43,736 nucleotides of DNA from an uncultured Candidatus Saccharibacteria bacterium (GCA_964448925.1 CAYUXQ010000001.1:38405-82140), one strand, 5' to 3'; positions 30,402-32,938 are shown, counted from the first letter of the stretch. Numbers and translations are program-made. The notes: generated by a model from the sequence alone, not told the origin.

Positions 30402-30488
30402 GCCGCGGTGGTGGAATTGGTAGACACGCTGGACTCAAAATCCTGTGAACGCAAGTTCGTGACGGTTCAAGTCCGTCCCGCGGCACCA
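30402..30488 (+). tRNA. tRNA-Leu (anticodon CAA), CCA encoded
   Basis: GCCGCGG/CCGCGGC acceptor stem, anticodon loop CTCAAAA, long variable arm, T-loop GGTTCAAGTCC and a terminal ACCA. Confidence 0.9.
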
Positions 30489-30594
30489 TCGACATGTGTG
30501 TTCAATCCTGTCTACCGTCAGGCAGGCCCACTCCACCCACCAAGCATCTAATCCATATCAGCCACTAATCAAAAATTGGAACCAAGTACTCTTT

Positions 30595-31437
30595 ATGCCC
30601 CAAGAACAGAAAGAACTTATCGCAACTTACTACGACCAAACTCTGAAGCTTTACGAAAGATTTTGGCACAAAAAAACCTACGGTGTACACTATGGTTTTT
30701 GGGATGATAGTACAAAAAATTTAGAGCAAGCTTTAATAAATGAAAATCAGTTCATGGCTGATCTTTTAGGGCTTAGCAAGGGCATGAAAGTTTTAGATGC
30801 CGGTTGCGGCGTAGGAGGTAGCTCTGTGTGGCTAGCCAAAAACTATGGCGTAGAAGTGAAAGGGATATCTTTAAGCAACAGACAAGTAAAAAAAGCAAAA
30901 GTGATAGCAAAGCAAGCGGGTGTGTCACACCTAACAAGTTTCGAAGTAAACGACTATTTAAAAACAAACTACTCTGCTAGAAGTTTTGACATAGTTTGGG
31001 CTGAAGAGAGTGTATGCTACGCGGAGAACAAGCAGGATTTCCTAAAAGAAGCCTACAGGCTTCTAAAGCCCGCGGGTAAACTAGTCGTAGCCGATGGGTT
31101 CTTGCTACGAAATGTAAGGGACAATGAGAAGAAGGATTTTAATACCTTTCTTGAGGGTCTAGCTCTCTCCAATCTCGCGTCAGTTGATAGCTTTAAGAAA
31201 AATATGCAAACAGCCGGTTTTAAAAAGGTAAAAATGCATGATGCCACTAAGGCCGTAGAGCCTTCTTCTGCTCTGATGTACAAGCGCGTTAGAAAGTTCT
31301 ACCCACTTGCTTGGTTTCAGCACAAAATTGGGTTAATATCTTCAGTATTATTAAACAACCAAAAAGCAGGGCTAGCTCAATACAGACTGGTTAAAAAAGG
31401 TATAGCCGGATATGCGGTCTTTACTGGAGAGAAATAA
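30595..31437 (+). CDS. Class I SAM-dependent methyltransferase (gamma-tocopherol/SDMT/sterol-C-MT-like branch)
   Basis: N-terminal YYDQTLKLYERFW..HYGFWD block and motif I VLDAGCGVGG. ATG 30595 is preferred, because the ORF-track start at 30496 abuts the tRNA. Confidence 0.8.
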   Translation: MPQEQKELIATYYDQTLKLYERFWHKKTYGVHYGFWDDSTKNLEQALINENQFMADLLGLSKGMKVLDAGCGVGGSSVWLAKNYGVEVKGISLSNRQVKKAKVIAKQAGVSHLTSFEVNDYLKTNYSARSFDIVWAEESVCYAENKQDFLKEAYRLLKPAGKLVVADGFLLRNVRDNEKKDFNTFLEGLALSNLASVDSFKKNMQTAGFKKVKMHDATKAVEPSSALMYKRVRKFYPLAWFQHKIGLISSVLLNNQKAGLAQYRLVKKGIAGYAVFTGEK

Positions 31438-31460
31438 AAAAATAAACCACACAAAATAGC

Positions 31461-31781
31461 ATGGAACAACTAGATTATATAAAGTGGTTTGCGGTCTTTG
31501 CTTGGACACCAATAATAATCGTCTGGGCATTTTATTGGAGGTACTTAATAAAGTTCTCCAAGGTGTTTTTGTATTGCATAATCGGTTCAGTTATTTTCGG
31601 GACGGTATGGGACTACTGGGCTACACACTACTGGTTGTGGCACTTCTCACCTGACCACACCTTAGGTGTTAATATTTTAGGTCTTCCTGTTGAAGAGTAT
31701 GTATTTTTTATCTCATTCACTATCTTGTATGCCAGTATCGCGCTTGTGCTTAAGGATAAGATGAGAATTAAAAAATTATGA
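31461..31781 (+). CDS. Lycopene-cyclase-domain membrane protein (CrtYc-like subunit)
   Basis: About 106 aa with three hydrophobic helices. The W-D-Y-W..W-H-F..LGLPVEEYVFF segment matches the PxEE-FF signature of the lycopene cyclase domain. Confidence 0.6.
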   Translation: MEQLDYIKWFAVFAWTPIIIVWAFYWRYLIKFSKVFLYCIIGSVIFGTVWDYWATHYWLWHFSPDHTLGVNILGLPVEEYVFFISFTILYASIALVLKDKMRIKKL

Positions 31782-32095
31782 GGTGGGCCTACCTAGTCAG
31801 CAATTTTATACCGATCTTGATTGCTTTTATACTAATTTGGCGAAAGGGTTTGCCAAGCAAGCGTACTTGGTATTTGCTAGCTATCTTAGGGACGCTAGGA
31901 CTTATCAATGCCCTTGGCGAAAACCCTGCTCTGCATTGGGGTATCTGGCATTATAATCTCCCTAAAACCTTAGATATTCAGATATTTGGTGTGCTTTTTG
32001 AGACATATGTTTACTGCATTATGGTTCCGATCGTTATAGGTTCAGCCGCACTTAAGTTTGCAGAGAGACAAAATGCCAAAAAGTCTAAAAAATAG
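31778..32095 (+). CDS. Lycopene-cyclase-domain-like membrane protein (CrtYd-like, degenerate motif)
   Basis: ATGA start/stop overlap with the preceding gene and the same size and topology. The WGIWHY..FGVLFETYVY segment aligns to the partner signature but keeps only one Glu. Confidence 0.5.
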   Translation: MRWAYLVSNFIPILIAFILIWRKGLPSKRTWYLLAILGTLGLINALGENPALHWGIWHYNLPKTLDIQIFGVLFETYVYCIMVPIVIGSAALKFAERQNAKKSKK

Positions 32096-32100
32096 CAACA

Positions 32101-32108
32101 AAAAAAAG
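32101..32108 (+). other. A7G run containing an A AAA AAG heptamer (candidate -1 frameshift or homopolymer indel site)
   Basis: In the frame of ATG 32073 the codons read A AAA AAG. A -1 slip lands exactly in the methyltransferase frame at GAT 32108. Confidence 0.3.
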
Positions 32109-32239
32109 ATGTAGAAAACTATTATTTCCGTCGTGAGTCGCGCTGGGGGTATAAGTATCTTTTAAAAGGTACCAAGCACTATAGCTACCACCCTAAAGGT
32201 GTCGTAGGTGGGCTAACTCTGGCAGAATCCCAGTTAGAG

Positions 32240-32938
32240 ATGGAAAAACAACTAGCAATTCGAATCGGGCAGAAGCACGGCGCGCGAATACTGGATGCTG
32301 GATGTGGCGAGGCGTTAGTAGCAATCCGTTTAGCAAAGGAGAAACCCTGGATAATTTATGGGATTGATTTGCTCAAACCATATGTGGATATAGCCAAGAA
32401 AAACGTGTCAAAAGCTGGTCTTGAAGGTAAGGTTATAGTTGAGGTTGGTGATTACACTCATTTGGACTTCCCAGACAATTACTTTAATGCCGTATACACA
32501 GTCGAGACATTAGTGCACTCACCTGACTATAAAAGAACACTAAGAGAATTCTATAGGGTTCTTAAGCCTGGCGGTGTGCTAGTTAACTTTGAGTACGCTC
32601 TTGAGGATGATATGACCCCCGAGCAAGAAGAGCCTTGGCGACATATATACGAGAATGGTGCGATGATGGGTGTATTTAAAGACTTTAGGATAAAGAGAAT
32701 GCAACAAATATGGGATCGGGCTGGGTTTGTAGATGTGAGAGTCGATGGTGTGACTAAAAACGTAGCTCCGTTTATGAAACGTCTCTATCAGATTGCATTT
32801 GTGCCTTTCCATATCCTAAAACTATTCGGTAAAGAAAAAAACTACACAAATACCTATGTAGGCTATATTTCTTTTGGGCTCCGCGACCAGTTTCAGTATT
32901 CTCTTATAAGTGCGGTCAAACCGAGTAGTCGTAAATAG
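32240..32938 (+). CDS. Class I SAM-dependent methyltransferase, paralogue of 30595..31437 (N-terminus unresolved)
   Basis: Motif I is ILDAGCGEA. Homology to the first methyltransferase (VENYYFRRESRWGY..HYSYHP) continues upstream in frame to 32096 with no ATG/GTG/TTG. The conservative start is ATG 32240. Confidence 0.75.
   Translation: MEKQLAIRIGQKHGARILDAGCGEALVAIRLAKEKPWIIYGIDLLKPYVDIAKKNVSKAGLEGKVIVEVGDYTHLDFPDNYFNAVYTVETLVHSPDYKRTLREFYRVLKPGGVLVNFEYALEDDMTPEQEEPWRHIYENGAMMGVFKDFRIKRMQQIWDRAGFVDVRVDGVTKNVAPFMKRLYQIAFVPFHILKLFGKEKNYTNTYVGYISFGLRDQFQYSLISAVKPSSRK

What the first reader, a model, noticed from the sequence alone, without database searches (positions are those of the whole stretch)
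32073..32242. The second methyltransferase N-terminus is reachable only via an A AAA AAG slip or an in-frame TAG
The frame of the second methyltransferase stays open upstream of its first ATG (32240), right back to the TAG (32093-32095) that ends the CrtYd-like gene. The two genes are therefore in the same frame, separated by one stop codon. The 48 upstream codons encode QQKKDVENYYFRRESRWGYKYLL..HYSYHP, which aligns with the N-terminal block of the first methyltransferase (ATYYDQTLKLYERFW..HYGFW). That stretch contains no ATG, GTG or TTG. The only plausible start is ATG 32073 in the +1-shifted frame (MPKSLKNSNKKK, compare MPQEQKEL of the paralogue). It joins the methyltransferase frame by a -1 shift exactly on A AAA AAG (32102-32108), the classic dnaX-type slippery heptamer inside an A7 run. 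There are four possible explanations: a homopolymer length error (true A8), a real frameshift mutation, programmed -1 frameshifting or transcriptional slippage, or TAG read-through producing a cyclase-methyltransferase fusion.
Basis: seen in the sequence. Interest (0 to 1): 0.6.

Follow-up and report, generated by a model that had tools for sequence, protein, structure and literature searches.

The report
One-base poly(A) frameshift at methyltransferase start
An accessory methyltransferase gene in a tiny Saccharibacteria-like genome has its start codon knocked out of frame by a run of eight A's that is one A short, a real but ordinary kind of mutation that most likely switches the gene off.

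Summary
The A run is A8 (32100-32107), not A7, so A9 or A6 would restore the frame, not A8.

The 48 start-less codons (32096-32239) are true coding sequence. They carry the family's invariant N-terminal block, and 41 of 42 related loci have an in-frame start upstream of that block. ATG 32240 is a conserved internal Met, not a native start.

Independent contigs from three runs in two studies all read A8, so a consensus error is unlikely.

TAG read-through is disfavoured. TAG ends 225 of 662 long ORFs, no suppressor tRNA was found, and no fused homologue turned up.

An evolved dnaX-type recoding signal is not supported:
- No relative shares the slip site.
- A tRNA-Lys(CUU) gene is present.
- In-frame A_AAA_AAG occurs 88 times in long ORFs.
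- No significant stimulator structure is present.

Best reading: a genuine 5' poly(A) frameshift allele (OFF state or fresh pseudogene). It lies in a 2.4-kb cassette next to tRNA-Leu that both same-genus genomes lack, and MutS/MutL were not found in this genome. Some leak by RNA polymerase or ribosome slippage is possible but untested.

This scan has already noted the same kind of lesion in other Saccharibacteria and Patescibacteria genomes.

The parts
30402..30488 (+). tRNA-Leu(CAA). The cassette begins just 3' of it.
   Evidence: ARAGORN. In same-genus genomes G001 and G002, the tRNA is followed within about 20-47 nt by the homologue of window 32935 onward.
30595..31437 (+). First methyltransferase (MT1), 280 aa, intact.
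   Evidence: ORF list. Pfam CMAS and Methyltransf_31/11 above their cut-offs.
31461..31781 (+). Lycopene-cyclase-domain protein (CrtYc-like), 106 aa.
   Evidence: PF18916 at 40.5 bits. TIGR03462 at 48.4 bits.
31778..32095 (+). Second lycopene-cyclase-domain protein (CrtYd-like), 105 aa, ending at TAG 32093-32095.
   Evidence: PF18916 scores 26.6 bits, just under its cut-off of 27.
32073..32114 (+). Orphaned start of the second methyltransferase: ATG plus 12 codons, then TAG. It overlaps the last 23 nt of the cyclase gene.
   Evidence: Translation. Its N-x-N-K-K tail resembles homologue N-termini, whose consensus is M-x-N-x-N-x-x-x-V-x-x-Y-Y.
32100..32107 (+). A8 tract, the site of the frame break. 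A9 or A6 would give one ORF of 288 or 287 codons.
   Evidence: Contigs from runs X1, X2 and X7 span it with 0 differences and 0 gaps.
32102..32108 (+). A_AAA_AAG heptamer in the frame of ATG 32073.
   Evidence: Read from the sequence.
32096..32239 (+). 48 start-less codons that encode the conserved N-terminal block of the methyltransferase.
   Evidence: Invariant residues in alignment A1. The PDB profile alignment begins at the K-G-t-k-H-y-G-Y motif inside this stretch. Mean pLDDT per 10-residue block over residues 1-50 is 77-89, with helices at 3-10, 13-22 and 42-57.
32240..32938 (+). Body of the methyltransferase, from a conserved internal Met to the stop. It contains the Rossmann core.
   Evidence: M49 is conserved in 90% or more of sequences in A1 and invariant in A2.
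32123..32151 (+). Weak hairpin 14 nt downstream of the heptamer. It is not a convincing stimulator.
   Evidence: Folds of about -12 to -15 kcal/mol. z = -1.0 and -1.5; 32 and 11 of 200 shuffles fold at least as well.

Best explanation
The second methyltransferase is a normal stand-alone gene of about 288 codons. Its native start is ATG 32073, which overlaps the end of the cyclase gene. A run of A's in codons 10-12 is one base short (A8 where A9 would be in frame) in the real DNA of this population. The start codon therefore reads 13 codons and stops, and the conserved body (32096-32938) has no start of its own.

The gene is therefore off, or nearly off. It is either a fresh pseudogene or the OFF state of a mutable 5' poly(A) tract. 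Replication slippage probably produced the change (inferred); no MutS/MutL mismatch-repair genes were found in the genome. A small leak of full-length protein is possible but not shown. It could come from RNA polymerase adding an A at the tract, or from a -1 ribosome slip on A_AAA_AAG.
For: Shown:
1. The upstream 48 codons are genuine coding sequence of the family. ATG 32240 corresponds to a conserved internal Met.
2. 41 of 42 related loci have a canonical in-frame start upstream of the conserved block. The 42nd is cut by the end of its locus. None of the 42 has an A run of 7 or more in the first 75 nt, and 3 have an A6.
3. A8 is the consensus in independent contigs: X1 (depth 7.5), X2 (depth 37.6) and X7 (a 221-nt contig at depth 5.5). 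These come from two studies and show 0 differences.
4. The assembly is not generally broken at such runs: 95 of 128 A/T runs of 8 or more lie in open frames of 150 aa or more.
5. The gene is accessory. The whole cassette 30495-32935 is missing from both same-genus genomes, exactly between tRNA-Leu and the next conserved gene. Only 1 of 48 other family genomes has even a 34%-identical homologue.
6. MutS_V and MutL_C were not found in a genome scored 100% complete. The same searches hit 11 of 14 control genomes.
7. Sense-strand A runs of 8 or more are enriched at 5' ends: 12 of 75 fall in the first 60 nt, against 6.4% of coding bases (binomial P = 0.003).
8. The protein keeps the fewest conserved columns of its 17-member group, 71 of 83. 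The others keep 90.5-97.6%.
9. One low-depth contig of X7 carries a further 1-base insertion after 32344, in the gene body.

Known analogues:
- Mycoplasma hominis vaa: 5' poly-A tract, 8 A = ON, 7 or 9 = OFF (PMC524362, passage read).
- Listeria inlA 5' poly(A) alleles (PMC2831843, abstract read).
Against: - The 280-codon body is still fully open and keeps all family-invariant residues. That fits either a very recent lesion or continued use.
- The same A8 allele dominates in samples from 2022 and 2024.
- The break sits on the classic shift-prone heptamer, with a zero-frame stop two codons later. This would also suit recoding.
- Contigs cannot show minority A9 reads, so neither reversibility nor heterogeneity is shown.
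- The higher count of deviations could simply reflect a long branch, since the nearest homologue is only 54% identical.
- The extra C in X7 is at depth 3.7 and may be an error.
Confidence: 0.68

Rival explanations
1. Evolved recoding. The gene is normally expressed from A8 DNA, either by programmed -1 ribosomal frameshifting on A_AAA_AAG or by RNA polymerase slippage that adds one A. This would set a low, fixed level of the second methyltransferase relative to the cyclase.
For: - A perfect X_XXY_YYZ heptamer lies in the frame of ATG 32073.
- A zero-frame stop follows two codons later.
- The gene body is intact.
- A8 dominates in two studies two years apart.
- For E. coli RNA polymerase, 8 A is the shortest run with any detectable slippage (PMC6260861, section 19 read).
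- In the review passages read, T. thermophilus, which has two lysine tRNAs, uses polymerase slippage for dnaX (PMC5009743).
Against: - There is no conservation. 41 of 42 related loci start in frame, and 0 of 42 have an A run of 7 or more near the start.
- A tRNA-Lys(CUU) gene is present, which should hold AAG firmly (PMC5009743 passage).
- In-frame A_AAA_AAG occurs 88 times in 662 long ORFs, so it cannot be very shifty in this organism.
- No SD-like element lies upstream (read by eye).
- The only hairpin starts 14 nt downstream and is not significant (z = -1.0 and -1.5).
- Efficient slippage is described for runs of 9 (PMC5009743 passage). Here 75 sense-strand A runs of 8 or more sit inside long ORFs.
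Confidence: 0.1
2. Consensus or sequencing error. The true tract is A9 and the gene is intact.
For: - Homopolymers are the commonest site of indel errors.
- X1 and X2 may be the source reads of the assembly, so they are not fully independent.
- The sequencing platform is not on record.
Against: - Three separately built contig sets agree on A8 with 0 differences over the parts they cover, up to 1401 bases. One of them, X7, is a sample not flagged as a possible source.
- Contigs of 5.6 and 25.9 kb run through the tract without a break.
- 95 of 128 A/T runs of 8 or more are in frame within long ORFs.
Confidence: 0.05
3. TAG read-through or reassignment produces a cyclase-methyltransferase fusion.
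For: The two genes share a frame and are separated by a single TAG.
Against: - TAG ends 225 of 662 long ORFs.
- No CUA-anticodon tRNA appears among the 39 tRNAs found, although that set is incomplete.
- A search with the read-through fusion gave 95 hits. None covers more than 77% of the query and none carries PF18916.
- None of the 120 hits listed carries PF18916.
- Homologues have their own Met a few to about 20 residues before the YY motif.
Confidence: 0.02
4. The real product is the 232-aa protein from ATG 32240, working without the N-terminal block.
For: - It is the first canonical start in the frame.
- The Rossmann core and motif I lie downstream of it.
- Two homologues are called short at the N-terminus: P0020 (238 aa) and P0021 (254 aa).
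Against: - M49 is a conserved internal residue of a helix spanning 42-57.
- The missing 48 residues hold 7 invariant positions. They also hold the H-y-G-Y motif shared with solved relatives such as 6uv6 and 3bus.
- No SD-like sequence precedes 32240 (read by eye).
Confidence: 0.08

Closest known systems
5' poly(A) tract frameshift alleles and phase-variable genes: Mycoplasma hominis vaa (A8 ON; A7 or A9 OFF) and Listeria monocytogenes inlA 5' poly(A) alleles
   Same: - A run of 8-9 A's sits within the first dozen codons.
- One base more or less puts the start out of frame and gives a peptide of about 8-13 aa.
- The genome is small and no MutS/MutL was found.
- 5' enrichment of poly(A) tracts, as reported across prokaryotes (PMC2831843 abstract), is also seen here.
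   Different: - The target here is a cytoplasmic small-molecule methyltransferase in a biosynthetic cassette, not a surface adhesin.
- No length heterogeneity or switching has been observed: 3 of 3 contigs spanning the tract read A8.
E. coli dnaX programmed -1 ribosomal frameshift (A_AAA_AAG)
   Same: The heptamer is identical and in the correct phase.
   Different: - There is no upstream SD-like stimulator.
- There is no well-placed stem-loop.
- The organism has a tRNA-Lys(CUU).
- The shift would be needed to make the only product, rather than a second product.
- It is not conserved in relatives.
Transcriptional slippage rescue at poly(A) tracts (Thermus thermophilus dnaX; Buchnera and Blochmannia genes)
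   Same: A sense-strand A run lies at a frame break, and adding one A to the mRNA would restore the frame.
   Different: - The run is 8, whereas the passages read describe efficient slippage at runs of 9 (PMC5009743).
- 8 A is only at the detection threshold for E. coli polymerase (PMC6260861, section 19).
- No RNA data are available.
RebM / AtmM / MitM-type class I SAM-dependent methyltransferases (PDB 3bus, 6uv6, 8zc8)
   Same: Best solved relatives by profile search, E = 4e-35 to 5e-29. They share the H-y-G-Y N-terminal motif and the Rossmann core.
   Different: The substrate is unknown. No NCBIfam equivalog reaches its cut-off. The neighbours are lycopene-cyclase-domain proteins, not sugar or antibiotic pathway genes.

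Membership tests
dnaX-type programmed -1 ribosomal frameshift site | Slippery heptamer X_XXY_YYZ in the zero frame | tested here: met
   A_AAA_AAG at 32102-32108, in the frame of ATG 32073.
dnaX-type programmed -1 ribosomal frameshift site | Stimulators: an internal SD-like element about 10 nt upstream, and a stable stem-loop about 5-9 nt downstream | tested here: not met
   No G-rich element in 32076-32101 (read). The hairpin starts 14 nt downstream, with z = -1.0 and -1.5.
dnaX-type programmed -1 ribosomal frameshift site | A sole tRNA-Lys(UUU) decodes AAG weakly | tested here: not met
   ARAGORN finds tRNA-Lys(ctt) as well as two tRNA-Lys(ttt).
dnaX-type programmed -1 ribosomal frameshift site | The shift site and two-frame layout are conserved among orthologues | tested here: not met
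   41 of 42 related loci have an in-frame start. 0 of 42 have an A run of 7 or more in the first 75 nt. DNA of the closest homologues (50-54% identity) could not be obtained.
Productive transcriptional slippage site | A or T run of 9 or more, giving heterogeneous mRNA lengths | tested here: not met
   The run is 8. mRNA heterogeneity is not testable here.
Homopolymeric-tract contingency (phase-variable) locus | A homopolymer in the 5' coding region whose +/-1 change toggles the frame | tested here: met
   A8 at codons 10-12. A9 gives a 288-codon ORF.
Homopolymeric-tract contingency (phase-variable) locus | Tract-length variation within or between populations | tested here: inconclusive
   3 of 3 contigs spanning the tract read A8. 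A fourth run's contig ends inside the tract at depth 2.8. Contigs hide minority variants.
Homopolymeric-tract contingency (phase-variable) locus | High-frequency reversible switching with a phenotype | not testable with these tools
   This needs cultures, or deep raw reads over time.
Class I SAM-dependent methyltransferase | Pfam methyltransferase domain above its cut-off, plus motif I | tested here: met
   Methyltransf_11 at 75.7 bits against a cut-off of 21.2. Motif I reads L-D-A-G-C-G-E-A, with the last G replaced by A.
Stop-codon (TAG) reassignment or programmed read-through | TAG is rarely used as a stop, a cognate suppressor tRNA exists, and fused homologues exist | tested here: not met
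   TAG ends 225 of 662 long ORFs. No CUA tRNA among the 39 found. No fusion among 95 hits.

The most novel reading that the evidence does not exclude
In Saccharibacteria and other Patescibacteria in which MutS/MutL are not found, 5' poly(A) tracts of 8-9 A may act as a general, selected on/off or throttle device for accessory genes. Here it would uncouple one methyltransferase of a horizontally acquired methyltransferase/cyclase-domain cassette. The population would then hold both A8 (off or leaky) and A9 (on) cells, or would rely on polymerase slippage for a low dose of the enzyme.

Two things fit this reading. A runs of 8 or more are enriched at 5' ends. Similar lesions have been noted by this scan in other such genomes, though I did not check those notes.
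Probability: 0.2. Interest if true: 0.5.

Novelty: new member of a known kind. Interest (0 to 1): 0.25.

Why it matters
For annotation, the gene should be described as a frameshifted methyltransferase of about 288 codons whose native start is ATG 32073. It is neither a 232-aa protein starting at 32240 nor a cyclase fusion.

Biologically, the finding adds one more example of 5' poly(A) tracts as fragile points in tiny genomes in which mismatch repair was not found. The scan has now seen this lesion in several Patescibacteria. If raw reads showed mixed tract lengths, that would give a cheap handle on phase variation in uncultured episymbionts. On the present evidence it is an ordinary homopolymer frameshift in a dispensable, recently acquired gene.

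Tried and rejected
- RNA evidence: no RNA holder was listed for this stretch, so expression and slippage could not be examined.
- Run X8 (third study): its contig ends at 32105, inside the tract, at depth 2.8. This is uninformative.
The genome scan returned 43% or less. Whether the nearest relatives also sit behind a cyclase gene or carry an A tract therefore remains open.
- Cyclase neighbours in relatives: tblastn with the window's two cyclase-domain proteins found none in 42 related loci at E <= 1e-3. These short membrane proteins diverge fast, so this is weak evidence.
- Short-called homologues P0020 (238 aa) and P0021 (254 aa) may be similar N-terminal lesions or mis-called starts.
- Screen for other split genes at A/T runs of 8 or more: 4 of 128 were flagged. 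All are small gains or gene ends, and none was followed up as a clear split gene.
- Flanking direct repeats of the cassette (att-like): none found.
- Three paper-tool calls failed on term syntax and were resent in corrected form.

Full report
**Observation**

The sequence and translations confirm the layout.
- The CrtYd-like ORF 31778..32095 ends at TAG 32093-32095.
- The next 281 codons, in the same frame, are open to the stop at 32936-32938.
- The first ATG, GTG or TTG in that frame is ATG 32240.
- The only near-cognate start before it is CTG 32219, which lies downstream of the conserved block.
- ATG 32073 lies in another frame and reads 13 codons to TAG 32112-32114.
- A -1 shift on A_AAA_AAG (32102-32108) joins it to the methyltransferase frame.

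One correction matters. The tract is A8 (32100-32107), not A7. A script that varied the run length showed that A9 gives one ORF of 288 codons and A6 gives 287. A7, A8 and A10 all stop within 13-21 codons.

**Are the upstream 48 codons coding?**

Yes.
- A search with the 280-aa read-through found 1136 relatives, of which the best 120 were listed. The top hits are 268-288 aa, 46-54% identical, and cover 94-99% of the query.
- In a 25-sequence alignment, Y9, E14, S15, G18, Y19, G25 and H28 are invariant. All of them lie within the start-less stretch. M49, the residue encoded by ATG 32240, is conserved in 90% or more of sequences and is invariant among the 17 closest.
- A profile search of solved structures aligns from the K-G-t-k-H-y-G-Y motif (profile position 27-30) onward. 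The matches are sugar O-methyltransferases and MitM: 6uv6, 3bus and 8zc8, with E = 4e-35 to 5e-29.
- An AlphaFold model (mean pLDDT 92.3) folds residues 1-48 into helices 3-10 and 13-22, with helix 42-57 spanning M49. Mean pLDDT per 10-residue block over residues 1-50 is 77-89.

ATG 32240 is therefore an internal Met, and a 232-aa product would lack a conserved part of the fold.

**Where is the native start?**

Homologues begin with their own Met a few to about 20 residues before the YY motif. The consensus of the 17 closest is M-x-N-x-N-x-x-x-V-x-x-Y-Y. The tail of the ATG 32073 frame (N-S-N-K-K-K), followed by D-V-E-N-Y-Y in the other frame, fits that pattern.

In 42 related loci from public genomes (32-43% identity), 41 have a canonical in-frame start upstream of the block. 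The remaining locus is cut by its end. None has an A run of 7 or more in the first 75 nt, and 3 have an A6. The two-frame layout is therefore peculiar to this genome among those I could examine.

**Is A8 real?**

Independent contigs were laid on 31500-32900.
- X1 (study P1, depth 7.5) and X2 (study P2, depth 37.6) cover the whole stretch with 0 differences and 0 gaps.
- X7 (study P1, another sample, not flagged as a possible source) has a contig 31961-32181 across the tract with 0 differences.
- X8 (study P3) has a contig that ends at 32105 at depth 2.8, which is uninformative.
- X1 and X2 may be the source of the assembly, and contigs hide minority variants.

Genome-wide, the counts of A/T runs are 119 of length 8, 9 of length 9 and none longer. 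Of the 128 runs of 8 or more, 95 lie inside open frames of 150 aa or more. The assembly is therefore not systematically miscounting such runs. I put a consensus error at about 5%.

**TAG read-through**

- TAG terminates 225 of 662 long ORFs.
- ARAGORN finds 39 tRNAs and none has a CUA anticodon. The set is incomplete: for example, no Asn, Asp or Ile tRNA was found.
- A search with the read-through fusion (386 aa) returned 95 proteins. None covers more than 77% of the query and none carries the lycopene-cyclase domain.
- None of the 120 hits listed carries that domain either.

This reading is very unlikely.

**Programmed recoding**

The heptamer is the classic one, but the context does not support an evolved signal.
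- The genome encodes tRNA-Lys(CUU) as well as tRNA-Lys(UUU). Passages I read in the Atkins et al. review (PMC5009743) attribute the shiftiness of A_AAA_AAG in E. coli to its sole lysine tRNA pairing weakly with AAG. They note that Thermus, which has two lysine tRNAs, uses polymerase slippage on 9 A's or T's instead.
- In-frame A_AAA_AAG occurs 88 times in 662 long ORFs of this genome, so it cannot be strongly shift-prone here.
- No SD-like element lies upstream (read by eye).
- The only downstream hairpin (32123-32151) begins 14 nt after the heptamer and is not significant (z = -1.0 and -1.5).
- On transcriptional slippage, section 19 of PMC6260861 reports no detectable slippage by E. coli RNA polymerase on runs shorter than 7 T or 8 A. 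A8 is therefore at the threshold. In this genome, 75 sense-strand A runs of 8 or more sit inside long ORFs.

A leak of a few percent at most is plausible but untested. No RNA run holds the stretch.

**Context**

- The four genes are MT1 30595-31437, two lycopene-cyclase-domain proteins at 31461-31781 and 31778-32095, and MT2.
- They lie directly 3' of tRNA-Leu(CAA) at 30402-30488.
- In both same-genus genomes, the tRNA is followed within about 20-47 nt by the homologue of window 32935 onward. The 2.4-kb cassette is therefore absent there.
- Only 1 of 48 other family genomes has a homologue, at 34% identity. Among the 60 relatives searched, the figure is 1 of 60.
- Cassette GC is 39-43%, against 45.1% for the genome.
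- MutS_V and MutL_C were not found in a genome scored 100% complete. The same searches hit 11 of 14 control genomes.
- Sense-strand A runs of 8 or more are enriched at gene starts: 12 of 75 are in the first 60 nt, against 6.4% of coding bases (P = 0.003).
- MT2 keeps 71 of 83 columns that are 90% or more conserved in its 17-member group, the lowest value. The others keep 90.5-97.6%. A long branch could explain this as well as relaxed selection.
- One low-depth X7 contig carries an extra C after 32344 in the gene body.

**Conclusion**

The best reading is a genuine one-base-short 5' poly(A) frameshift allele in an accessory, horizontally acquired methyltransferase gene. It is the same kind of lesion as the M. 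hominis vaa poly-A switch, where 8 A is ON and 7 or 9 is OFF (PMC524362, passages read). It also matches the Listeria inlA 5' poly(A) alleles (PMC2831843, abstract read). Whether it is a fresh pseudogene or the OFF phase of a reversible switch cannot be told from contigs.

This scan's notes record similar 5' poly(A) frameshifts in other Saccharibacteria and Patescibacteria genomes. I did not check those notes. This is a new member of a known kind, and interest is low to moderate.

Noticed in passing
window 30495-32935 (flanked by tRNA-Leu 30402-30488): The whole methyltransferase / split cyclase-domain / methyltransferase cassette is absent from both same-genus genomes, exactly between tRNA-Leu(CAA) and the next conserved gene. 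It looks like a 2.4-kb insertion at a tRNA 3' end. Its GC is slightly lower than the genome's (39-43% against 45%). No flanking direct repeat was found.
   Followed up: partly
whole genome G000: MutS (PF00488) and MutL C-terminal (PF08676) domains were not found in a genome scored 100% complete. The same searches hit 11 of 14 control genomes.
   Followed up: partly
whole genome G000: The A/T homopolymer length distribution has a sharp ceiling: 119 runs of 8, 9 runs of 9 and none longer. Under an iid model the expected counts are 26, 7 and 2. Sense-strand A runs of 8 or more are about 2.5-fold enriched in the first 60 nt of long ORFs.
   Followed up: partly
G000:C2:9264-10136 (locus L172): A YihY/BrkB-family membrane protein gene (PF03631, 131.8 bits) whose domain match begins 6 residues upstream of the first ATG, GTG or TTG. 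The start-less extension holds a T7 and an A8 run. It also holds an ATT preceded by AAGGA, which could be a non-canonical start.
   Followed up: partly
window 32344-32345: One contig of run X7 (214 nt, depth 3.7) has an extra C in the CCC run inside the methyltransferase body. This is either a second frameshift variant in that sample or a low-depth error.
   Followed up: no
proteins P0020 and P0021 (homologues, about 47-50% identical): Two homologues on contigs of 12-17 kb are called 238 and 254 aa and begin inside or after the conserved N-terminal block. They could be further N-terminal lesions or mis-called starts.
   Followed up: no
window 31778-32092: The second cyclase-domain protein scores just under the Pfam and NCBIfam cut-offs (26.6 against 27 bits; 24.8 against 39.4 bits), while its partner passes both. 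No carotenoid pathway gene was seen nearby in the ORF list.
   Followed up: no
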